This document shows positions 37,461 through 62,641 of a stretch of 64,000 nt of DNA, piece after piece. Within the stretch, counting starts at the first letter, position 1, and each line of letters begins with the position of its first letter. Below the pieces are notes generated by a model. That model was not told where the DNA came from and ran no database searches. It saw only the letters and a list, made by a program, of their open reading frames with translations. The stretch comes from Shigella phage ESh25, in sequence record ON528735. One strand, given 5' to 3'. The position numbers and the translations under genes are program-made.

Positions 37461-37781
37461 TTATAGCGTAATCCATTCTCGTATTGTCTGAGTTACTACA
37501 CGTTCACGGGGCTCGACTAGTTCAACAGTCGGAACTGCATAATACCAGTCAGAATGGTAAGAACCTGAGCGAGATTCATTTACAGACACATGTACGTTAT
37601 GTTTTGGACTAAAATAAACGCACTGCCGATATTGGCATTTGCCATCTTGTACCCAATCTTCTATTTCGACAGGTTTAAGATAATCCGAAAAATCGAAATC
37701 ATAATTTTCTGAAAATGCATCATGGTCTTCGATGATTTCGCTCAGAACTGCATCAACATCTAATTTATTTTCAATATTCAT
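37461..37781 (-). CDS. hypothetical acidic protein
   Basis: 106 aa ORF. Confidence 0.5.
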   Translation of the reverse strand: MNIENKLDVDAVLSEIIEDHDAFSENYDFDFSDYLKPVEIEDWVQDGKCQYRQCVYFSPKHNVHVSVNESRSGSYHSDWYYAVPTVELVEPRERVVTQTIREWITL

Positions 37782-38441: not shown

Positions 38442-38699
38442 TTATTCCTTAATTCCTAGTACTTGTTTAAAAGTCTCGTCGTAATCAAGACTTTGGCCCG
38501 TTTGTTCTTTATGTTTGTATATAATATCACTTACTTCTGATAGCATATTTTTATATGAACGAGTTAAAGCAGATTTAAGCACGCTGTATCTATCAGGAAA
38601 TTTACCATGTTCATTATAATAAGCTATTGCTAATTCACGGACTGCTTTTTCAGCAGCCTCCATATATTCTTTACGCTTGGTCATTTTCTTCTCGGTCAA
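38442..38699 (-). CDS. hypothetical protein
   Basis: 85 aa ORF. Confidence 0.45.
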
Positions 38700-38988
38700 A
38701 TCGGTGTTTACAATGGCGACATTTATAACGAAGATTACTAGTCTGCCAATGAACTAATTGTACCTGTTCAGTACCGCATTCAGGACATTTAGGAACGTTT
38801 TTAGAAGCCCTTTCGCGACGTTCAACCATAACCATAATGGCATCCCAAGCAGGAGGTTTAAAGTCTAAATCGTCACAACCATGAATCTTTCCACGCATTT
38901 CTAGATCGTCTTCTTCACCAGCCATAATAATTTTAATTAAACTGGAATTACTTGAAGCTGCAATGTCTTCTAATAGACGCTTTTTCAT
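38671..38988 (-). CDS. zinc-ribbon protein
   Basis: 105 aa; CPECG...CRHCKH. Confidence 0.5.
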
Positions 38989-39914
38989 TTCAATACCTCA
39001 ATAGCATTACGTAAACCATTTGCTTTTGCATTAAGAGCTTTTAACAATTTGGTGTGTTCGGCAATATGGGCTTCAACTTCAATCAAACGAGCATTGAGAT
39101 ATTCGCGTTCTTCGCTCAGATTATCAACCTTTTCTACTTTAGGCTCTTTTACAACTGTCTTATATGTATTAGGGTTCTTCAGTTTAATTAGAATGCGTGA
39201 ACTATATAACATTGAACCGTTATCTTCGGTTTCGTCATACATTTCTACTACGTCCATGATTTTTAACATCATGCGAAGTTTATAAGACAACGAACGAATA
39301 GTTTTGTTGTGCTTATTAATTTCTTTAGCTGTCATGGTGCCGAGATTACGTGAGTAATAATAAGGAACCTGGATATTAATTAATACTGATGAACCACCTG
39401 GCTTGTGTGTTACTTCATCAGCAATAACCCAGTCCTTAACGTGAACTGTATTTGTACGGTCATCGCCCGCGGTAAATAGTTTGCGAGCATGCTTAAAAAG
39501 CATATTCACTTGGTCATTGAATTGACAAGCAAATTTATCAGCAAATTTAGTTTCAGGAATGGTAGATAACCAATCAGCCAAATGGGTCTTTTTAACATCG
39601 TTAACAACAGTAAATTCAACCAAATCGGTTATAGATGTCTCAGATTTAATGAAGCTTGGCTTCATAAAGTTTTTAATGTTATCACGAGCTACAGTAGAAG
39701 ATAACATACGAGAACGTTTAAACCATTCAAGCAAATTACCTGACGAATGAGAATAAGCGTTTTGAGTATCTTTACAGATATGATTTTCCTGACCAACATA
39801 TTGAAGGAAATCACGAAGAATATTATTGATTACTGCTCTGTGTCCGATCTGATAATTACGGTGTTTAGTAATAAGACTGTCAAAATAATCAATATAATGT
39901 TTACGAGTTTTCAT
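38985..39914 (-). CDS. coiled-coil tail protein, family member 1
   Basis: 309 aa; N-terminus MKTR...; C-terminal ~50 aa heptad-rich. Confidence 0.55.
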   Translation of the reverse strand: MKTRKHYIDYFDSLITKHRNYQIGHRAVINNILRDFLQYVGQENHICKDTQNAYSHSSGNLLEWFKRSRMLSSTVARDNIKNFMKPSFIKSETSITDLVEFTVVNDVKKTHLADWLSTIPETKFADKFACQFNDQVNMLFKHARKLFTAGDDRTNTVHVKDWVIADEVTHKPGGSSVLINIQVPYYYSRNLGTMTAKEINKHNKTIRSLSYKLRMMLKIMDVVEMYDETEDNGSMLYSSRILIKLKNPNTYKTVVKEPKVEKVDNLSEEREYLNARLIEVEAHIAEHTKLLKALNAKANGLRNAIEVLK

Positions 39915-39966
39915 GTTCTTCTCACTTGGTTAATGATTTATACTCCGAGCCATCCTTGGCTTTAAA

Positions 39967-40968
39967 TTACTTAATTAACTGTAAAGCTTGTTCAAGACGA
40001 TCAAGACGATTAACAGATTCTTCCCAAATCCTTTTAGCCTGCTCATATTCTTTCTGCGCTTTATTAGAAATTTCTAGAACTTCTTTATAAGCTTTTTCTA
40101 ATGCAATAACTTCTGGACGAATTTCTACCGGTTCAGGTGAATCGTCAAGATTATCCATTAGTTCCTCAAGGGTAGTTTCTTCTTTAGGAGTATTCACAAT
40201 TTCATCACATTTTTGCTGGTAAATTTCTTTATCAGTCGGTGAGCACGCACACTTTACTTCACGAAGGCTAATTATAATTTTATATCCTTCCCAACCACAC
40301 ATATTTTTGAAAGGATATGTATGAATACTTTTTACAGTTTCCATACAGCCCAAAACCGCCTCTAATTGATAAGTTATAGTGCTAGCAATTGAGAAAAATT
40401 TATTAATATTCTTTTGGTTAGCGTTTGGTGTAAAAAATCCATAATTCACAAAAATAGCTACTTTATTTTCATCAAGCTCATATTCTTTTACGATAATCAT
40501 ATCAGAAGCCAAAGGATGAATTTGACGATAATCGCCATAACATAATTTAGAAGCTGATTTTAGAATTTGTCCTTTGAAAAGTCTGAAATTACTAATCCAA
40601 CGACGAGTAAAAATATTCTTAGGGTCTTCTTTGGTATTAAGATGATAAGAATTAACATCACCGAACCAATTGTATCCTATTACACCTTTAGTTCGTTTAA
40701 TTTCTTTCCCAAAATTACCAAGAATATCCCGATTAACCAAATATGAAAGAAGACGAGACCCTTTAAAGATTATCTTAATATCATCTTTATCTACACGGCT
40801 AGAAATTTCACGAACTTCATGAATAAATTTACTGGAAGAAACAATACTTGCATCAATACTGCTGAGCCATTGATTGATAATAGAAAGAACAGCGTTCTGA
40901 CTAGACATGGGTTTAACTTTATCATCAATAACGCTATTGAATGATTTGATATATTCGTTACGAGTCAT
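39967..40968 (-). CDS. coiled-coil tail protein, family member 2
   Basis: Track ORF trimmed to ATG (MTRNEY...) preceded by GAGGAG SD and early promoter; C-terminal coiled coil. Confidence 0.55.
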   Translation of the reverse strand: MTRNEYIKSFNSVIDDKVKPMSSQNAVLSIINQWLSSIDASIVSSSKFIHEVREISSRVDKDDIKIIFKGSRLLSYLVNRDILGNFGKEIKRTKGVIGYNWFGDVNSYHLNTKEDPKNIFTRRWISNFRLFKGQILKSASKLCYGDYRQIHPLASDMIIVKEYELDENKVAIFVNYGFFTPNANQKNINKFFSIASTITYQLEAVLGCMETVKSIHTYPFKNMCGWEGYKIIISLREVKCACSPTDKEIYQQKCDEIVNTPKEETTLEELMDNLDDSPEPVEIRPEVIALEKAYKEVLEISNKAQKEYEQAKRIWEESVNRLDRLEQALQLIK

Positions 40969-41025
40969 ATTAATCTCCTCAGTAGAAAGTAAGAACATTA
41001 TACCACATCCTTGTGGTAAAGTAAA

Positions 41026-42045
41026 CTAGTTTAGTGCATTTAGTGCGTTGTTCAGTTTAGAACGTTGCTTCGTGAGATTTTTGACTTTTTCTTGTGCTTT
41101 TTCTAGCATCTTTTCAGCTTCTAACACTTCATTGGTCGCTTTAACGAGTTCATCATCTACTGCCTTAAGGGACTTCTCAATCGCATCCGCGTGCCATTTT
41201 TCAACAGGTTTAAGACTCGGATTTTCAATAGGAAGAAAATTCACTTTATTAAATTTCCATGCATCTTTATTACCTGAGCTATACATCCAAAATTTAGGAT
41301 CGTTTGATAAGCAATTAGATAAATTTAAGTTATCTTGCACTTCCTGCTTTTTCTCTTGCGGGACTTCGTCCTTTCTCAAAAAATCATATTTAAATGAAAC
41401 AACCATATCAAGTTCATATGTTGTTGTGTCTAATTTAAATCGTTCAAAACGAGGTAAAATCTTAGATTGAACAGCAGCAACAACATCCATATACTTAAAT
41501 GCTTCTGTCAGCTGTGATTTAAGGCATTCACAAATTGAAAGAGAATTTTTTGTATTAGGTTTAAAGCTAATTCGTGCAGTTCTATTATTTTCTTTTAACG
41601 GTCTTACTTCCATCTGAAGAGTATAACCATCAAATTTCAGGTTCTTTAAGTTAATGTCAGAACCTTTTAATCGACTAGCCGTCGACAAAATTTGCTTTAA
41701 TTGTTTACGGAATAGAGCAATAAATCTCCATTCAAGACGGTAATGATTTGGATTAAAAAATCCTGTTGATAAATCAACCTTACTCTGACCAACGCCTTGA
41801 ACAAATAGAGGATTTTTATAATCAATAGTTTTACAGAAATCGGTGAGCTGTTCGCGAGCAGTCATTTGCGTAATATATCCAGCTTTATCAAAATGTCGCA
41901 GCCATTCACTGCTATTCATATACTTAAAGTGAATGGAACTATTAACTCTATCAGGGTCTAAATTATTTTGGCACAAAAATGTCATAACATCACGAGTATA
42001 GCTGGCATTACGAACCATATCTTCAATTTGAGAACGAGTTTTCAT
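41026..42045 (-). CDS. coiled-coil tail protein, family member 3
   Basis: 339 aa; MKTRSQ...; C-terminal coiled coil. Confidence 0.55.
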   Translation of the reverse strand: MKTRSQIEDMVRNASYTRDVMTFLCQNNLDPDRVNSSIHFKYMNSSEWLRHFDKAGYITQMTAREQLTDFCKTIDYKNPLFVQGVGQSKVDLSTGFFNPNHYRLEWRFIALFRKQLKQILSTASRLKGSDINLKNLKFDGYTLQMEVRPLKENNRTARISFKPNTKNSLSICECLKSQLTEAFKYMDVVAAVQSKILPRFERFKLDTTTYELDMVVSFKYDFLRKDEVPQEKKQEVQDNLNLSNCLSNDPKFWMYSSGNKDAWKFNKVNFLPIENPSLKPVEKWHADAIEKSLKAVDDELVKATNEVLEAEKMLEKAQEKVKNLTKQRSKLNNALNALN

Positions 42046-42053
42046 GGTGTTCC

Positions 42054-42941
42054 TTAAGATTTAAGTAAATCAACAATTTTAATTAATTTTTCACGTTCAG
42101 ATTTAGCTTTACTACTCAATCCAGATAGTCTGAATATTTCATCATCATATTGTTGAATAGAAATATTTAGCTCTTCAATTTGCTTATTAAAATAATCAAT
42201 TTGTTCAGAATGTTTTTCGTTACTACGAACTGGTACAGGTTTTGTAGGTAATTTAGATGAACTGGATTCATCCGGGCGATAAATTAAAATACAACTTGAA
42301 CCAATTGGACATTTTGCACCAGATGAATATTCTAATGTTCCGGCTTCTTTTAAAACTTCAAAAGCTAAACAGAGATGATGCCCCATATTAACATAATCTG
42401 TAGAGCGAGCTCTGACGTAATAATCATCTCCACGAGTGCTAAATTTAAAGCATTTAAGGTCTTCTGTATTATTGGTCTTAAAAATCATTTGTTTATCTAG
42501 ACCTTTAGCTAATCGAGCGCCTAATGCTAATAATCGTCGTTGATTTTCCCACAAATCCTCAATCATTTGATCGAATGATAATTTTGGCATTAGTCGACCA
42601 TAAAGGTCATATCCTTTATTATAATTGCGAAGAATTTCACTTGCATTAATACGAGACAATGCTCCAATTTTATTAAGGGCTTTCATAATGCGATTAGATA
42701 AACCCATTCCAGACCCGTTTGTTCGCTGTAAATGTTTTTCTAATCCAAATCCAATATCAACTTTAAATTTATCTAAAATTTCAGCATGAACATCTCTGTC
42801 AATAACATTCAAATCCAAAGTTGGGTTAAATCTATGAAAAAATTTATCTGGCTCTCCACGACGAAGTACAGTCCATTCATTCAATTTTTTATTAACTAAA
42901 GATTTAATTACTGCATTGACATTATTAATTACTACTGACAT
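42054..42941 (-). CDS. coiled-coil tail protein, family member 4
   Basis: Track ORF (TTG start) trimmed to ATG with GAGGA SD; C-terminal coiled coil. Confidence 0.55.
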   Translation of the reverse strand: MSVVINNVNAVIKSLVNKKLNEWTVLRRGEPDKFFHRFNPTLDLNVIDRDVHAEILDKFKVDIGFGLEKHLQRTNGSGMGLSNRIMKALNKIGALSRINASEILRNYNKGYDLYGRLMPKLSFDQMIEDLWENQRRLLALGARLAKGLDKQMIFKTNNTEDLKCFKFSTRGDDYYVRARSTDYVNMGHHLCLAFEVLKEAGTLEYSSGAKCPIGSSCILIYRPDESSSSKLPTKPVPVRSNEKHSEQIDYFNKQIEELNISIQQYDDEIFRLSGLSSKAKSEREKLIKIVDLLKS

Positions 42942-42948
42942 ATTTTCC

Positions 42949-43356
42949 TCACTCAATTTCAATTTTACTAAATATACAGAATAAGATGGAACAGACTATA
43001 TAAGCACCACACACAGATTGAACTAATACCATTCCAAAGAACCAAACGATATTATCAAACAATGTCTGTTTTACGTCGAAAGGACGTAAACTTACAGTAA
43101 TATTATCACCTTTTTCTATTGATGAATACATCTCTGGGGAAATATATTCACTAAATCTATAACCGTCTTTGAGTTCATATACGGCAATAAACGATAAACT
43201 AGACCCCTTTCCTTGAGTTCCTGTAAGGGTATTAACTACAGTAACATCATAATCTTTATAATGCATATAATCATTAATTGCGTAATAACCATATGCAATT
43301 ACTACGCATAAACAACATATCAATAAATTCAATCTTTTAATTATCAACTGTTTCAT
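42949..43356 (-). CDS. membrane protein
   Basis: 135 aa with N- and C-terminal hydrophobic helices. Confidence 0.5.
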   Translation of the reverse strand: MKQLIIKRLNLLICCLCVVIAYGYYAINDYMHYKDYDVTVVNTLTGTQGKGSSLSFIAVYELKDGYRFSEYISPEMYSSIEKGDNITVSLRPFDVKQTLFDNIVWFFGMVLVQSVCGAYIVCSILFCIFSKIEIE

Positions 43357-43411: not shown

Positions 43412-43939
43412 TTATGCGAGTACCGTCTTTAACCGTTCTTCAAACTTCCGAAGAGTATTTTGGCGTTCAGCTCTTTGCTTTTTGTAAGTTTCAATACGCT
43501 CTGAAATGAGAGTATATCGTTCATTTACTGATTCTTTCATAAAATCAGGAATTTCACGAGAAGCTTTAATCTCGTCAAATTTATCAATAACAACTTGCTC
43601 TTCAGCAATTAAGTTATCATACATCAAAATATCTTTCTTGATGAACTCAATATCTTCTTGAGTTACACGAGATAATTTAGATGCTTTATCCTTTTTGTAC
43701 TGTTCGTTAGTATCACGAGACCAGTGTAATGTACGATTTTTATTCGTATTCTTGTAAATTTCTACAATACCAATCTCATCGATAATAACGATCCAATTCC
43801 AACGGGATTTGTAAATTTGTCCTCCATCAACAGTGATTTCACCTCCGATTGAGATGTCATTAAAGAACTTGCTTTGTGCTTCTGATTTAAATTTACCATC
43901 GTTGTAATTTACCAGGTTGAAAATATCTTTAGCATTCAT
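43412..43939 (-). CDS. hypothetical protein
   Basis: Track ORF trimmed to MNAKDIF...; the first 20 track codons lie inside a promoter cassette. Confidence 0.55.
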   Translation of the reverse strand: MNAKDIFNLVNYNDGKFKSEAQSKFFNDISIGGEITVDGGQIYKSRWNWIVIIDEIGIVEIYKNTNKNRTLHWSRDTNEQYKKDKASKLSRVTQEDIEFIKKDILMYDNLIAEEQVVIDKFDEIKASREIPDFMKESVNERYTLISERIETYKKQRAERQNTLRKFEERLKTVLA

Positions 43940-44403: not shown

Positions 44404-45372
44404 TTATTTCAGAAGAGTAACCTCAGCGATTTCTTCCCAACCGTTTTTGTCGGTCATAATAAAGTCAGCAAGATAAAGAGCAGTACGCAGTGAAACATTG
44501 CGTAAACGATTAACATTGACTTTCATCCATGATAATGCTTTATAAGTTTCTTCATCAGAAAGACCGCGCTTTTGCATCATGTCAGTTGAAAGAATAACAT
44601 CTTCAACCCTGACCATAATTTCTTCATTAGCGTGAACACCCAAATCCAAATAAACTGAGCGGGACACTAATGCTTGTAAATGTGGAGCAAGTTTAGTACC
44701 ACGGTCTAATTCGCGGTCAATGTCAACGTTTGTGATAAAAACAATCGTTCCTTTAAATTCAAACTCACGCTCAATGCCTTTTTCTTCTAAATAAGAAGAT
44801 GCAGTGCTCCAGCAGACTTTACGGGTCTCTCCAGTGTCCAGAGCAGCTTTTAGAAGATTAAGAATGTCCATATCAGAGAAAACATCCACATCATCAATCA
44901 AAAGGACAGAATTCGCTTCACGATTATTCCAAAGCTGCTCATAAAGACCAATACCAGAGATTTTACCGTTAATGCTTTTATATTCAATGTATCCATTATC
45001 ATTTGCTTTATTTAAAGCTTTATCTAAAGAATACGTTTTACCAATACCTGCTGCACCAGAGATAATTAATGAACGAATGTTTCCGTTAATAATACCATTC
45101 GTCATCATTCCCATAACATTAAATCTTTTATTAATGCGGGTTTTCATATCTTCATATGATTCTTTAACTTCTTCAACTTTTACACCATCATATGAAATGT
45201 CTGATTTGTAAACCCAAACACCGCGACGTTTACCGTCAATTTCAACAAAAACTTTACCATCTCCTTGTGCATCTACCGGAGCATTATCAGGGAACCACTC
45301 ACCTAAGAGTTCAAAAGTTCCAGAGATTTCTTTACCGAAGTAGATACCCTTATTAATAGTTACAGTTTTCAT
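44404..45372 (-). CDS. AAA+/P-loop ATPase
   Basis: Walker A GAAGIGKT and Walker B LLIDDVD; track TTG start trimmed to ATG. Confidence 0.65.
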   Translation of the reverse strand: MKTVTINKGIYFGKEISGTFELLGEWFPDNAPVDAQGDGKVFVEIDGKRRGVWVYKSDISYDGVKVEEVKESYEDMKTRINKRFNVMGMMTNGIINGNIRSLIISGAAGIGKTYSLDKALNKANDNGYIEYKSINGKISGIGLYEQLWNNREANSVLLIDDVDVFSDMDILNLLKAALDTGETRKVCWSTASSYLEEKGIEREFEFKGTIVFITNVDIDRELDRGTKLAPHLQALVSRSVYLDLGVHANEEIMVRVEDVILSTDMMQKRGLSDEETYKALSWMKVNVNRLRNVSLRTALYLADFIMTDKNGWEEIAEVTLLK

Positions 45373-45384
45373 TTTATTCTCCAA

Positions 45385-45486: not shown

Positions 45487-46500
45487 TCATTTATAATAAC
45501 TTCGGTGGTTTTCAAGATAGACCTTCTCAAGGAAGTCATCCCAGAAACTCATGTCTACTTTTTGCTGCATACCGTTCTTAGAAGCTTCAGTAGATGCTGC
45601 TTCTACTTGATCGACCACATCTTCCAAAAACTCTTGAACTGTTTTAAATGGATGTTTACCCAACTTCACGTCGAGAATAAATGGAGCATCTTTGAGTGGA
45701 TAAACCAAGTCACCAGTTTTGTAAATTTCCAATAGTTGGAGTCCACCACGGCAAGCATGACTCAGAGCTTTCCAGTCAATACCTTCATTGGCTTCGGCCT
45801 TACGAGCACGTTCACCATATTCAGCATCTAATTTGTTCAGTGACTGCTTAAGCTCAATAAGAGAAAGCGTTGTCTGATATTTACGACCCAACACAGTGTA
45901 GAACGTTTGTGGGCCTGTTTTCTCATGATTATGGAACACCCATTCACAGAATTCGTTTTCTGGAAGACGATGCTTAATATCTTCAACTTTATTTCGACGC
46001 TGCTTAATGGAACCGTCTTCTTGGTAATCAACCCATTGCTCAGGGATTTGATTAACTACTTTCAATACATCACGTAATGCAGCCAAACGAGAACCCTTGA
46101 CACCGTATTTAGAAGCTTGCTTGCGGACATATCCTAAATAGGATTTCATGTTAGTCGTATAAAAACGAGAACGGTTGTCTTGGATAAATTTCCATACATC
46201 AGGCAAATCAGATTTAACCACTAGTTCAGGCGGAGTGTGAAGCATATCCAATGCTACAGTTTCACCATCTGCTGCTAATTTAAAGAAATACTTAAGACTG
46301 TATAGTTCATGGTCAATATCATCTTTAGTGTTTTTAGATGATGTGTTGTTAGTGTTTTTACTCATGTGCTCTTTGACATTTCCGATAAGAATATCGCGAG
46401 CAGGAGGAACAAAGATTTCTTTAAAATCTACATCAGATTCTGGGGTAGAAGTTCCATAAAGATGACTACCAAAATAGCTTTTCATTACTGTTTTCATCAT
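45487..46500 (-). CDS. nucleotidyltransferase-fold protein (pol-beta superfamily-like)
   Basis: 337 aa; N-terminal GSHLYGTSTPESDVDF matches G[SG]...D.D NTase signature. Confidence 0.55.
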   Translation of the reverse strand: MMKTVMKSYFGSHLYGTSTPESDVDFKEIFVPPARDILIGNVKEHMSKNTNNTSSKNTKDDIDHELYSLKYFFKLAADGETVALDMLHTPPELVVKSDLPDVWKFIQDNRSRFYTTNMKSYLGYVRKQASKYGVKGSRLAALRDVLKVVNQIPEQWVDYQEDGSIKQRRNKVEDIKHRLPENEFCEWVFHNHEKTGPQTFYTVLGRKYQTTLSLIELKQSLNKLDAEYGERARKAEANEGIDWKALSHACRGGLQLLEIYKTGDLVYPLKDAPFILDVKLGKHPFKTVQEFLEDVVDQVEAASTEASKNGMQQKVDMSFWDDFLEKVYLENHRSYYK

Positions 46501-61238: not shown

Positions 61239-61314
61239 TGGTCGAGGCAGTAGGAATCGAACCTACGACCTAGGACTTAGAAGGTCCTTGCTCTTCCTTC
61301 TGAGCTATGCCTCG
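61239..61314 (-). tRNA. tRNA-Arg (anticodon UCU)
   Basis: Manual fold: 7 bp acceptor, D and T arms, loop CTTCTAA, encoded CCA. Confidence 0.75.
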
Positions 61315-61318
61315 GATT

Positions 61319-61393
61319 TGGCGGACGTGATAGGATTCGAACCTATAACCAATCGCTTAACAGGCGATCGCTCTGCCATTGAGCTACACATCC
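61319..61393 (-). tRNA. tRNA-Asn (anticodon GUU)
   Basis: Manual fold: loop CTGTTAA, GGTTCGAAT T-loop, encoded CCA. Confidence 0.7.
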
Positions 61394-61397
61394 AAAT

Positions 61398-61484
61398 TGG
61401 TGGGGAGTGGTGGAGTCGAACCACCCGAGTCGCAATGACAATGGATTTACAGTCCACACCGCTACCTCTACGGGATAACTCCCC
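61398..61484 (-). tRNA. type II tRNA-like, possibly tRNA-Tyr (GUA)
   Basis: 87 nt; acceptor GGGGAGT/ACTCCCC, T-arm GGTGG-TTCGACT-CCACC, long variable arm, candidate loop CTGTAAA; D-arm irregular. Confidence 0.45.
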
Positions 61485-61493
61485 AAATTAATT

Positions 61494-61568
61494 TGGTGGC
61501 CCTGGGTGGAATTGAACCACCATCTGGCGATTATGAGTCGCTTGCTTGAACCTTCCAGCTACAGGGCC
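61494..61568 (-). tRNA. tRNA-Ile/Met type (anticodon CAU)
   Basis: Manual fold: loop CTCATAA, encoded CCA. Confidence 0.75.
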
Positions 61569-61569
61569 T

Positions 61570-61645
61570 TGGTGCTGATTGACGGAATCGAACCGCCGAC
61601 CTTCTCATTACAAGTGAGTTGCTCTACCTACTGAGCTAAATCAGC
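61570..61645 (-). tRNA. tRNA-Thr (anticodon UGU)
   Basis: Manual fold: loop CTTGTAA, encoded CCA. Confidence 0.75.
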
Positions 61646-61650
61646 AAAAC

Positions 61651-61740
61651 TGGCGGAGGCGATAGGATTTGAACCTATGAGTCGCCGGAGCGACTGCCGG
61701 TTTTCAAGACCGGTGCATTAAACCACTCTGCCACGCCTCC
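61651..61740 (-). tRNA. tRNA-Ser (anticodon UGA), type II
   Basis: Manual fold: long variable arm, loop CTTGAAA, encoded CCA. Confidence 0.75.
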
Positions 61741-61743
61741 AAA

Positions 61744-61751
61744 TATTTATA
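61744..61751 (-). promoter_or_regulatory. possible late promoter TATAAATA at segB 3' end
   Basis: Exact 8-mer on minus strand overlapping last segB codons, a few nt 5' of tRNA-Ser; could be chance in AT-rich DNA. Confidence 0.3.
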
Positions 61752-62355
61752 TATTGTTAATTTGATTTAGAATTCTTTTTGCTTGAGTATGACTTACGCC
61801 AATATGCTTAGCATATTTAGATAATTCACCCCGCTTAGAAAAATCATATAATTTAGAAATTTCTATTCTTCTTTTTCTTTCATCCGCAGAAACTTTTGCT
61901 TCGTTTGCTTTTGCTATTTTACGTTTAGCTTCTTGAGAATGAGTTTTACCAGCAAAGCCATTTTTCATTAATCCATTTGAAGACCATCCTTTTAATTTTC
62001 CGTTAGAATGTGCCTTTTTAACACCCAATGAAATTAATTCGCGTTGCTGATCTGTCATAGGATAATTATTTATATGATCCCATCCACCTTCACCTCCAAG
62101 TTTTAAATTATACACATCTGGTCTATTTAAAAACTCTTCTGTGACAATATTTTTCTCGGCTTCAAGCATAGATTCTTTATCATCAAAATACTCTAATATT
62201 TCTTTAGAAAAATTTTCTATGCCATATTTATCTTGGGCTCTTTTTAATAATTTACCAGAACCCATATATCCATCATCTAAATTTTCGGTAGAATGCACAC
62301 CAATATAAATTTTATTATTAATTTTATTTGTTATTTTATAAAGATAAAAATGCAT
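61747..62355 (-). CDS. segB: GIY-YIG homing endonuclease SegB
   Basis: FYLYKITNK...IYIGV motif; embedded in the tRNA cluster as in T4; track ORF starts at ATG 62397 (216 aa), I prefer ATG 62355 next to the motif. Confidence 0.8.
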   Translation of the reverse strand: MHFYLYKITNKINNKIYIGVHSTENLDDGYMGSGKLLKRAQDKYGIENFSKEILEYFDDKESMLEAEKNIVTEEFLNRPDVYNLKLGGEGGWDHINNYPMTDQQRELISLGVKKAHSNGKLKGWSSNGLMKNGFAGKTHSQEAKRKIAKANEAKVSADERKRRIEISKLYDFSKRGELSKYAKHIGVSHTQAKRILNQINNI

Positions 62356-62401
62356 ATCAGTCCCTAATAAAGAACTGAGCGTCTCACGACGAGTCATAAA
62401 T

Positions 62402-62475
<74 letters not shown>

Positions 62476-62480
62476 AAATT

Positions 62481-62567
62481 TGGTGCGAGAAGTGGGACTC
62501 GAACCCACAAGGAAATCATTCCGCAGCATTTTAAGTGCTGTGCCTTTACCAATTTGACCATTCTCGC
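62481..62567 (-). tRNA. tRNA-Leu (anticodon UAA), type II
   Basis: Manual fold: long variable arm, loop CTTAAAA, encoded CCA. Confidence 0.75.
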
Positions 62568-62568
62568 G

Positions 62569-62641
62569 CTGGGAATAAAGGACTCGAACCTTTGCATCTA
62601 GCAGTCAAAGTGCTATGCCTTACCAACTTGGCTAATTCCCA
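62569..62641 (-). tRNA. tRNA-Gln (anticodon UUG), no encoded CCA
   Basis: Manual fold: loop CTTTGAC; abuts tRNA-Leu (dimeric precursor arrangement). Confidence 0.7.

What the first reader, a model, noticed from the sequence alone, without database searches (positions are those of the whole stretch)
38985..42962. Tandem array of four paralogous ~300-340 aa proteins with divergent heads and conserved C-terminal coiled-coil tails
Four consecutive genes encode proteins with similar N-terminal openings (MKTR.../MTRNEY...) and a heptad-rich, Lys/Glu/Leu-rich C-terminal segment of ~50 residues (for example ...EKMLEKAQEKVKNLTKQRSKLNNALNALN, ...RLDRLEQALQLIK, ...[19 protein letters not shown]). The central domains differ. 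This looks like a diversifying gene family made by tandem duplication, as seen for specificity or anti-defense modules that share an oligomerisation or docking tail.
Basis: seen in the sequence. Interest (0 to 1): 0.55.

Follow-up and report, generated by a model that had tools for sequence, protein, structure and literature searches.

The report
Tandem NrdC.3–6 paralogues of T4-like phage
Four neighbouring early genes of a T4-like phage (nrdC.3 to nrdC.6) are very old duplicates of one gene, each a globular head joined by a flexible linker to a coiled-coil-type tail; one of them is already known to switch off a bacterial anti-phage system, so the other three are good candidates for the same kind of job.

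Summary
The window is a Tequatrovirus (T4-like) genome. The closest record is phage Bas37/KarlGJung, 97% identical. The four genes are nrdC.3, nrdC.4, nrdC.5 and nrdC.6, all on the minus strand.

There are four consecutive proteins of 295-339 aa. Each ends in a 47-59-aa helix with significant heptad periodicity. These tails rank 1, 2, 3 and 5 of 47 ORFs in the window.

The claim that the central domains differ does not hold. The heads are homologous:
- C3-C4, hhalign E 1.5e-13.
- C4-C5, hhalign E 8e-6.
- C6 joins through predicted fold (Foldseek E 1.8e-5 to an NrdC.6 model), matching order of secondary-structure elements, and collinear motifs shared by all four.

The family lies beside nrdC in other T4-like phages too, and its copy number varies: 1-4 within Tequatrovirus, 3 in Dhakavirus and Gaprivervirus, 2 in Mosigvirus and Acinetobacter phage Acj61, 1 in Klebsiella phage Roth34, none in Krischvirus.

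T4 NrdC.5 neutralises the Dsr1 sirtuin defence (eLife 2022). Neighbouring genes gp49.2, nrdC.1 and nrdC.8 are also reported anti-defence genes.

Best reading: an ancient paralogue array of host-specific immune inhibitors. This is shown for C5 and inferred for C3, C4 and C6. Within each lineage the tails are more conserved than the heads. dN/dS is 0.07-0.31, so selection is purifying, not diversifying. A resemblance of the C4 head to phage tail terminators is only a lead.

The parts
38985..39914 (-). nrdC.3 (309 aa), paralogue 1
   Evidence: ORF. phrog_1435, E 2e-115. 59% identical to T4 NrdC.3 and 74% to a Mosigvirus homologue. hhalign to the NrdC.4 family, E 1.5e-13.
39967..40968 (-). nrdC.4 (333 aa from ATG 40968), paralogue 2
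   Evidence: ORF. phrog_1435, E 3.5e-165. Homologues carry PF26897. AF2 model, mean pLDDT 83.
40997..41025 (-). T4-type early promoter (GTTTAC-N17-TGGTATAAT) in front of nrdC.4, with a 7-bp hairpin in its spacer
   Evidence: Promoter scan, 10 of 12 matches with TG extension. Sequence read directly. Function as a promoter is inferred from the consensus only.
41026..42045 (-). nrdC.5 (339 aa), paralogue 3; orthologue of the T4 anti-Dsr1 protein
   Evidence: Pfam DUF7235 (PF23882), 406.7 bits against a cut-off of 30. 93% identical to T4 NrdC.5. T4 NrdC.5 restores infection on Dsr1 hosts (PMC9391042).
42054..42941 (-). nrdC.6 (295 aa from ATG 42941), paralogue 4
   Evidence: phrog_2257, E 1.5e-152. 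Homologues carry PF26899. AF2 model, mean pLDDT 78.6. The NrdC.4 model hits the JS10 NrdC.6 model, E 1.8e-5.
38988..39128 (-). NrdC.3 C-terminal heptad tail (residues 263-309)
   Evidence: 86% a/d occupancy in one register; 5 of 5000 shuffles reach it.
39970..40116 (-). NrdC.4 C-terminal helix (residues 285-333)
   Evidence: AF2 helix 285-332. 71% a/d occupancy; 74 of 5000 shuffles reach it. One nonsynonymous difference from T4 in the tail.
41029..41205 (-). NrdC.5 C-terminal heptad tail (residues 281-339)
   Evidence: 88% a/d occupancy; 0 of 5000 shuffles reach it. Best 28-residue heptad window in the whole window sequence. Weak profile match to a keratin coiled coil.
42057..42218 (-). NrdC.6 C-terminal helical tail (residues 242-295)
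   Evidence: AF2 helices 242-271 and 277-294. 3 of 5000 shuffles reach its heptad occupancy. No nonsynonymous change against four related phages.
39660..39704 (-). Shared head motif M1 in NrdC.3 (LSSTVARDNIKNFMK)
   Evidence: The pattern [LIM][ST]xxx[AN][RS][DE]x[LI]x[ND][FY]xK occurs only four times in the six-frame translation of the window, once in each paralogue; 0.0008 expected. The pattern was defined post hoc.
40705..40749 (-). Shared head motif M1 in NrdC.4 (LSYLVNRDILGNFGK)
   Evidence: Lies in helix 72-84 of the AF2 model.
41830..41874 (-). Shared head motif M1 in NrdC.5 (ITQMTAREQLTDFCK)
   Evidence: Aligned to the NrdC.4 and NrdC.6 motifs by hhalign.
42615..42659 (-). Shared head motif M1 in NrdC.6 (LSRINASEILRNYNK)
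   Evidence: Lies in helix 94-106 of the AF2 model.

Best explanation
nrdC.3, nrdC.4, nrdC.5 and nrdC.6 are ancient tandem paralogues of one Straboviridae gene family. Each encodes an early, dispensable, cytoplasmic protein with three parts: an alpha/beta head of about 230-250 aa, a flexible acidic or proline-rich linker, and a 47-59-aa heptad helix.

The most likely function is counter-defence. Each head binds and blocks a different host immune protein. The tail, which is conserved within each lineage, provides self-association or a second contact, so that the inhibitor acts as an oligomer on oligomeric sensors.

Shown:
- Homology of the four heads.
- Heptad periodicity of the tails.
- Variable copy number at a fixed locus.
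- Purifying selection.
- From the literature, anti-Dsr1 activity of T4 NrdC.5, which is 93% identical to the copy here.

Inferred:
- That C3, C4 and C6 are also immune inhibitors.
- That the head is the specificity module.
- That the tail oligomerises.
For: Homology:
- hhalign of family profiles gives C3-C4 at 98% probability (E 1.5e-13), C4-C5 at 83% (E 8.4e-6), and a merged C3+C4 profile against C5 at E 2.6e-6. All forward comparisons beat reversed-profile controls.
- The AF2 models of C4 and C6 have the same order of secondary-structure elements.
- The C4 model hits the JS10 NrdC.6 model: E 1.8e-5, probability 1.0, TM 0.40/0.46. The C4 and C6 models share seven further BFVD hits from other T4-like phages.
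- Collinear motifs are shared by all four: one counted strictly (M1), two read off the alignments (M2, M3).

Synteny and turnover:
- The family sits at the same position next to nrdC in Gaprivervirus, Dhakavirus, Mosigvirus, Acinetobacter phage Acj61 (two tandem copies, both hit by the models) and Klebsiella phage Roth34.
- Natural Tequatrovirus genomes keep 1, 2 or 3 copies.

Function:
- T4 nrdC.5 expressed from a plasmid restores plating of a deletion mutant on Dsr1-carrying cells (PMC9391042).
- All four genes are non-essential in T4 and Bas37 by transposon sequencing.
- The neighbours gp49.2, nrdC.1 and nrdC.8 are reported inhibitors of OLD, Septu and Druantia III.
- An early-type promoter lies inside the array.

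Module behaviour:
- Tails are more conserved than heads within every lineage.
- C4 and C6 tails show one and no nonsynonymous changes respectively.
- nrdC.3 occurs as two alleles, 59% identical with dS about 1, in otherwise close genomes.
Against: - Only NrdC.5 has any experimental link to defence.
- In the HIDEN-SEQ tables, disrupting the Bas37 orthologues (bas37_0198-0201) gave no significant depletion on the three clinical E. coli strains I read: CFT073, CFE299 and CFE303. The strongest effect was NrdC.6 on CFT073, log2FC -0.73, adjusted p 0.81.
- Gene-wide dN/dS of 0.07-0.31 shows no arms-race signature in close comparisons.
- The shared basic helix motif (A-x-[KR]-L-x-x-G-x-D) could instead mark a common ligand or a common activity, rather than four different targets.
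- NrdC.6 joins the family only through predicted structure, topology and motifs. Its profile-profile E-values are 0.007-0.07.
- No NrdC.5 structure was predicted here.
- The oligomeric state of the tails is untested. In the NrdC.6 monomer model the tail folds back as a hairpin.
Confidence: 0.6

Rival explanations
1. The four proteins assemble through their similar tails into one hetero-oligomeric complex with a single function, rather than acting as four independent inhibitors.
For: All four tails are heptad helices of similar length and end in a similar LxxA[LI]xx[LI]K motif. Each tail is conserved at nearly all positions, not only at a/d positions, which suggests a specific partner.
Against: Viable natural phages carry only C6 (ACG-C40), C3+C6 (fPS-2), C3+C5+C6 (FL08), C4+C5+C6 (Dhakavirus, Gaprivervirus) or a single copy (Roth34). 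NrdC.5 alone on a plasmid restored infection of the T4 deletion clone on Dsr1 cells, although the extent of that deletion is not given in the text.
Confidence: 0.1
2. The family has a job other than counter-defence, and NrdC.5's effect on Dsr1 is a side effect or one specialised offshoot. Candidates are host takeover, regulation, or assembly; for example a nucleic-acid or ligand binder using the conserved basic helix, or a protein related to virion tail terminators that acts in morphogenesis.
Confidence: 0.2
3. The four genes are unrelated, and only look alike because each ends in a low-complexity charged helix.
For: Most pairwise BLASTP comparisons are not significant. HMMER with the C3/C4 profile does not retrieve C5 or C6. 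Pfam keeps three separate families.
Against: The significant matches are in the heads, not the tails. The C4 and C6 models share topology and cross-hit each other's relatives. Collinear motifs are shared, one of which was counted only in these four ORFs. The locus is conserved across genera.
Confidence: 0.03

Closest known systems
T4 NrdC.5 (Pfam DUF7235), inhibitor of the Dsr1 sirtuin defence (Srikant, Guegler and Laub, eLife 2022)
   Same: The window's third gene is its orthologue: 93% identity and a full-length DUF7235 match. The other three genes are its distant paralogues, with the same head-linker-tail plan.
   Different: The mechanism of NrdC.5 is unknown. The paralogy with NrdC.3, NrdC.4 and NrdC.6 is not mentioned in any paper I could search. 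Activity was shown for the T4 allele, not for this one.
DSAD1, the phage inhibitor of DSR2
   Same: A phage protein that blocks a SIR2 NADase defence by occupying its sensor (established for DSR2 in PMC10981675 and PMC11087589). This is the working model I infer for NrdC.5 against Dsr1, whose sensor recognises major capsid protein (bioRxiv 10.64898/2026.01.04.697583).
   Different: No sequence or fold relation to DSAD1 was tested or seen. The defence protein and the phage group are different. Binding of NrdC.5 to Dsr1 has not been shown.
T4 paralogue sets used against host defences (internal proteins IPI, IPII and IPIII with a common targeting signal; Alt, ModA and ModB)
   Same: Several related accessory proteins in one phage, sharing one module while varying elsewhere. 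They are individually dispensable and lost or swapped between close relatives (from established T4 knowledge and PMC9391042).
   Different: Here the shared module is a C-terminal heptad helix rather than an N-terminal capsid-targeting signal. The genes are early and tandem, and the paralogues are far more diverged (13-24% identity).
Phage tail terminator and tail completion proteins (lambda gpU-like fold)
   Different: Sequence identity is 7-12%, with no family match by sequence. The proteins here are three times larger, have a helical N-terminal subdomain and a coiled-coil tail, are non-essential, and lie behind an early-type promoter. This is a resemblance only.
PHROG 1435, PHROG 2351 and PHROG 2257; Pfam PF26897, PF23882 and PF26899
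   Same: These existing families already hold the four proteins. PHROG 1435 already joins NrdC.3 with NrdC.4.
   Different: The libraries treat C3/C4, C5 and C6 as three unrelated families of unknown function. The evidence here joins them into one superfamily that reaches Acinetobacter and Klebsiella T4-like phages.

Membership tests
DUF7235 / NrdC.5 family (PF23882) | Full-length match to the Pfam model above its gathering score | tested here: met
   Window 41026-42045 scores 406.7 bits against a cut-off of 30, covering residues 1-339. The other three proteins do not match this model.
DUF7235 / NrdC.5 family (PF23882) | Neutralises Dsr1 during infection | not testable with these tools
   Shown only for the T4 allele (PMC9391042). 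The window's protein is 93% identical.
PHROG 1435 (NrdC.3/NrdC.4) | Full-length profile match | tested here: met
   NrdC.3 E 2.3e-115 and NrdC.4 E 3.5e-165, both end to end.
NrdC.6 family (PHROG 2257, PF26899) | Full-length profile match | tested here: met
   phrog_2257, E 1.5e-152, residues 8-302 of the long ORF. All 105 homologues carry PF26899.
One superfamily NrdC.3-NrdC.6 (proposed here) | Significant profile-profile similarity between the heads | tested here: met
   Met for C3-C4 (E 1.5e-13) and for C4-C5 (E 8.4e-6; E 2.6e-6 with the merged profile). Reversed controls give E 0.19-0.54.
One superfamily NrdC.3-NrdC.6 (proposed here) | NrdC.6 shares sequence-profile similarity with the others | tested here: inconclusive
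   E 0.007-0.066, collinear and better than reversed controls (0.26-0.69), but not significant alone.
One superfamily NrdC.3-NrdC.6 (proposed here) | Same predicted fold and topology | tested here: met
   Met for C4 against C6. The order of elements matches. The C4 model hits the JS10 NrdC.6 model at E 1.8e-5, TM 0.40/0.46, and the two models share seven other hits. C3 and C5 were not modelled.
Coiled-coil proteins | Long helix with heptad repeat of hydrophobic a/d positions | tested here: met
   Unbroken register over 47-59 residues. Shuffle tests reached it in 5, 74, 0 and 3 of 5000 trials. AF2 predicts helices.
Coiled-coil proteins | Helices actually pair into an oligomer | not testable with these tools
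   Only monomer predictions were available. The NrdC.6 tail is modelled as a helical hairpin and the NrdC.4 tail as a free helix.
Tail terminator / tail completion proteins (gpU-like) | Fold similarity | tested here: inconclusive
Tail terminator / tail completion proteins (gpU-like) | Sequence-family membership | tested here: not met
   No Pfam, PHROG, NCBIfam or PDB-sequence match to any tail protein family.
DSAD1-type sensor-blocking inhibitors | Direct binding to the sensor domain of the sirtuin defence protein | not tested
   No complex prediction tool was available and there is no published binding data for NrdC.5.

The most novel reading that the evidence does not exclude
The NrdC.3-6 superfamily would be a Straboviridae-wide scaffold for early-expressed decoys. 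The head would be built on a virion-protein-like (tail-terminator-like) fold and displayed on a coiled-coil stalk. It would occupy the sensors of pattern-recognition defences such as Dsr1 and Avs-type receptors, which detect conserved phage structural proteins, before the late structural proteins appear. Each paralogue would be tuned to a different sensor.
Probability: 0.12. Interest if true: 0.75.

Novelty: new member of a known kind. Interest (0 to 1): 0.5.

Why it matters
T4 is the best-studied phage, yet these four genes are still listed as hypothetical proteins in three unrelated families.

Joining them into one superfamily with a known anti-Dsr1 member does three things:
- It nominates three further proteins per phage, plus relatives in Klebsiella and Acinetobacter phages, as candidate immune inhibitors.
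- It gives a common head-linker-tail architecture for working out how NrdC.5 blocks Dsr1.
- It marks the pin-to-nrdC.11 block as a dense anti-defence island that gains and loses copies between close relatives. That turnover is relevant to host range and to the design of therapeutic T4-like phages.

Tried and rejected
- **DNA repeats between the copies.** None beyond 16-31-nt chance-level matches, so the duplication is not recent.
- **Pfam and NCBIfam scans of the four proteins.** Apart from NrdC.5's own family DUF7235 (PF23882), only sub-threshold noise: PHL, DUF3905, a tyrosine recombinase N-terminus, and coiled-coil families.
- **PDB sequence search with the three family profiles.** No relatives; only designed helical repeats and a keratin coiled coil.
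- **HMMER search of 1.84 billion representatives with the C3/C4 profile.** Nine hits, all C3/C4-type. It does not bridge to C5 or C6 and finds no bacterial homologues.
- **NrdC.8 as a fifth member, because of its K/E/R-rich C-terminus.** No profile similarity, E 0.05-0.3, the same as reversed controls.
- **Gene-wide positive selection.** Rejected; dN/dS is 0.07-0.31.
- **Tail-only homology between paralogues.** Weak, E 8e-4 to 0.12. I do not claim a conserved tail sequence across paralogues beyond the terminal motif.
- **Literature on NrdC.3, NrdC.4 and NrdC.6 function or on an NrdC.5 mechanism.** Nothing found.
- **HIDEN-SEQ supplementary tables.** No significant conditional phenotype for the four Bas37 orthologues on three clinical strains. 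The remaining conditions were not read.


Full report
**What the region is**

The window is a T4-like (Tequatrovirus) genome read on the minus strand. nrdD, endonuclease VII, pin and the thioredoxin nrdC lie just downstream of the finding. The 3978-bp region matches 659 phage records. The best match is Bas37/KarlGJung at 97.4% identity, and RB51 and PP01 annotate the genes as nrdC.3, nrdC.4, nrdC.5 and nrdC.6.

The ORFs are 38985-39914 (309 aa), 39967-40968 (333 aa), 41026-42045 (339 aa) and 42054-42941 (295 aa). I prefer the shorter starts for nrdC.4 and nrdC.6 for three reasons. A T4-type early promoter (GTTTAC-N17-TGGTATAAT) occupies 41025-40997. nrdC.7 ends at 42949. And T4 is annotated with the shorter starts.

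The libraries place the four proteins in three families of unknown function:
- PHROG 1435 for both C3 and C4 (Pfam PF26897).
- PHROG 2351 / Pfam DUF7235 for C5.
- PHROG 2257 / PF26899 for C6.

**Checking the observation: the tails**

The tails are real.
- A single unbroken heptad register over the last 47-59 residues puts L/I/V/M/A at 86% (C3), 71% (C4), 88% (C5) and 67% (C6) of a/d positions.
- Shuffling each tail reached these values in 5, 74, 0 and 3 of 5000 trials.
- Among the 47 ORFs of at least 150 aa in the window, the four rank 1, 2, 3 and joint 4th/5th (tied at 0.57) for C-terminal heptad score.
- AlphaFold2 predicts one helix at 285-332 for NrdC.4. For NrdC.6 it predicts two helices, 242-271 and 277-294. 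In both models the tail follows a low-confidence linker.
- The tails are enriched in charged residues.

**Checking the observation: the heads**

The statement that the central domains differ is wrong.
- The only significant BLASTP pair is head to head: C3 vs C4, 24% identity over about 220 residues, E 5e-7.
- With family profiles, C3-C4 gives E 1.5e-13 and C4-C5 gives E 8.4e-6 over 231 columns. A merged C3+C4 profile against C5 gives E 2.6e-6. Reversed-profile controls give E 0.19-0.54.
- NrdC.6 is not significant by profile (E 0.007-0.066). Its alignments are nevertheless collinear from end to end.
- The NrdC.6 model has the same order of elements as the NrdC.4 model. The helix-helix-helix-strand-strand-long helix-strand-strand block falls at almost the same residue numbers in both.
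- The NrdC.4 model hits the BFVD model of phage JS10 NrdC.6 at E 1.8e-5, probability 1.0, TM 0.40/0.46. The two models also share seven further hits to uncharacterised proteins of about 300-375 aa from other T4-like phages: IME523, PM2, Mineola, Cronus, CBH8, fHe-Yen9-01 and Acj61.

Three collinear motifs occur in all four proteins.
- M1 is [LI][ST]xxx[AN][RS][DE]x[LI]x[ND][FY]xK. It occurs exactly four times in the six-frame translation of the window, once per paralogue, against 0.0008 expected. The pattern was defined post hoc, so the count only illustrates the point.
- M2 is a basic helix of the form ...K.IL..A.[KR]L..G.D, read off the hhalign alignments.
- M3 is A[LF]xxMDVV, degenerate in C4 and C6; I read it by eye from the sequences.

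Across paralogues the tails share little more than the heptad pattern and an ending like LxxA[LI]xx[LI]K. Tail-only profile comparisons give E 8e-4 to 0.12.

**How the family behaves**

There is no DNA-level repeat between the copies, and protein identities between paralogues are low (at most about 24% in the only significant pair). Separate orthologues of C4, C5 and C6 exist in Gaprivervirus VR20 and in Dhakavirus IME08, MN04 and SHP1. Mosigvirus F27 has a C3-like and a C6-like copy. The duplications are therefore older than these genera.

- In Acinetobacter phage Acj61, from a different subfamily, the two proteins hit by my models are adjacent genes: Acj61p120 (330 aa) and Acj61p121 (304 aa), matched to the BFVD entries by length and consecutive accessions. 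They lie just upstream of nrdC and end in similar heptad tails.
- Klebsiella phage Roth34 has a single 324-aa member at the locus (hhalign to C4, E 2e-4), carrying recognisable counterparts of M2 and M3 and a looser M1.
- Krischvirus GEC-3S has none at the locus.
- By HMMER the C3/C4 family is tiny: nine cluster representatives among 1.84 billion proteins.

Within Tequatrovirus the array is unstable.
- fPS-2 keeps only C3 and C6.
- FL08 lost nrdC.4 through a deletion that joins the 'MTR' start of nrdC.4 to 'KHYIDY' of nrdC.3.
- ACG-C40 keeps only C6 plus a C5::C3 remnant.
- One metagenomic genome encodes a C5::C3 fusion.
- Shigella phage Sf25 has an internal 83-aa duplication in C6.
- nrdC.3 exists as two alleles. 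T4's copy is 59% identical to the one here, with dS about 1, while the flanking paralogues are 88-97% identical with dS about 0.2.

Selection is purifying on all four genes, with pairwise dN/dS of 0.07-0.31. Within each orthologous lineage the tail is more conserved than the head. Head/tail identity to the distant orthologues is 0.37/0.62 for C4, 0.42/0.65 for C6 and 0.27/0.37 for C5. The C6 tail shows no nonsynonymous change in close comparisons and the C4 tail shows one.

**What is known experimentally**

- Srikant, Guegler and Laub (eLife 2022) found that a T4 clone with compensatory deletions could not plate on ECOR17 unless the host's dsr1 was removed. [quoted passage not shown]
- A 2026 preprint reports that the Dsr1 sensor domain, shared with Avs7, is triggered by phage major capsid protein.
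- I found no paper on how NrdC.5 acts, none on NrdC.3, NrdC.4 or NrdC.6, and none noting that they are related.
- The surrounding block holds other reported inhibitors. gp49.2 acts against OLD in T6; the window's copy at 37461-37781 is 96% identical to T4's. nrdC.1 acts against Septu in T4. bas37_0203 acts against Druantia type III; the Bas37 record shows this gene is nrdC.8, three genes upstream of the array.
- In the same transposon study, T4 nrdC.3-6 and Bas37 0198-0201 are non-essential on K-12. They are not significantly depleted on the three clinical strains I read.

**Most likely mechanism**

I conclude that the finding is an ancient tandem paralogue array of early accessory proteins with a head-linker-tail plan. 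Its most probable role is host-specific counter-defence. This is shown for NrdC.5. For the other three it is inferred from homology, dispensability, copy-number turnover, allele replacement and the anti-defence neighbourhood.

By analogy with DSAD1 and DSR2, the simplest model is that the head occupies the sensor of an oligomeric immune protein before the late trigger (capsid protein, in the case of Dsr1) is made. The tail would give multivalency or a second contact.

Tail conservation extends to non-core positions. In NrdC.6, for example, a DDEIF stretch is invariant. This suggests a specific interface rather than a generic zipper.

None of the binding steps has been shown.

**A lead, not a result**

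This could mean that the head derives from, or mimics, a virion protein. That would be interesting now that many defence sensors are known to recognise structural proteins. The scores are modest, however, and Dsr1 senses capsid protein, not a terminator.

**Rivals**

- A single obligate hetero-complex is unlikely, given natural genomes with one to three copies and complementation by NrdC.5 alone.
- A role unrelated to defence cannot be excluded for C3, C4 and C6.
- Chance resemblance of unrelated genes is contradicted by the head homology.

**Verdict**

The feature is real. The genes themselves are known T4 ORFs and one has a published function. What appears to be new is the superfamily link, its spread across T4-like phages, and the consistent conservation of the tail. 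Interest is moderate.

Noticed in passing
window 61239-62641 (minus strand): A cluster of nine tRNA genes: Arg, Asn, Tyr, Met(CAT), Thr and Ser, then Gly, Leu and Gln. A 660-nt gap between the two groups holds a 216-aa ORF (61747-62397). The cluster coincides with the only GC-rich stretch of the window (0.41 against about 0.34).
   Followed up: no
window 40997-41025 (minus strand): T4-type early promoter consensus between nrdC.5 and nrdC.4. Its spacer contains a 7-bp hairpin (TACCACA-agga-TGTGGTA) that the terminator scan also flags. A 32-nt piece of this intergenic sequence matches a separate phage sequence record (H25), and most genome records show a second matching place that I did not inspect.
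   Followed up: partly
window 37461-37781, 38442-38684 and 43412-43939 (minus strand): Neighbours with published counter-defence roles. gp49.2 (96% identical to T4's) is reported as an OLD inhibitor in T6. nrdC.1 is reported as a Septu inhibitor in T4. nrdC.8 corresponds to bas37_0203, reported as a Druantia type III inhibitor. Together with nrdC.5, this makes the pin-to-nrdC.11 block look like an anti-defence island.
   Followed up: partly
window 38985-39914; L004 7137-8063: nrdC.3 occurs as two deeply diverged alleles among otherwise close Tequatroviruses. The copy here is 59% identical to T4's (dS about 1), but 97-99% identical to many other phages and 74% identical to a Mosigvirus copy. 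This suggests allele replacement by recombination.
   Followed up: partly
L009 3001-3957; L010 4805-5216; L008 4001-5826; proteins P0119 and P0121: Natural rearrangements of the array. FL08 lost nrdC.4 through a join at the similar 5' ends (MTR|KHYIDY). ACG-C40 keeps only nrdC.6 plus a C5(1-68)/C3-tail remnant. fPS-2 keeps only C3 and C6. One genome encodes a C5::C3 fusion protein. Shigella phage Sf25 NrdC.6 carries an 83-aa internal tandem duplication.
   Followed up: yes
window 38671-38988 (minus strand): nrdC.2 (105 aa) ends in a CxxC...CxxC zinc-ribbon-like motif. It has several weak Pfam zinc-ribbon matches, all below threshold.
   Followed up: no
window 43412-43939 (minus strand): NrdC.8 (175 aa) also ends in a K/E/R-rich helix-like segment (…YKKQRAERQNTLRKFEERLKTVLA). 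It shows no profile similarity to NrdC.3-6.
   Followed up: yes
window 44404-45384 and 45487-46500 (minus strand): NrdC.10 gives weak P-loop/STAND-type NTPase matches, below threshold. NrdC.11 matches the RlaP nucleotidyltransferase family (PF10127, above threshold). They are two larger accessory genes just upstream of the array, with unknown roles.
   Followed up: no
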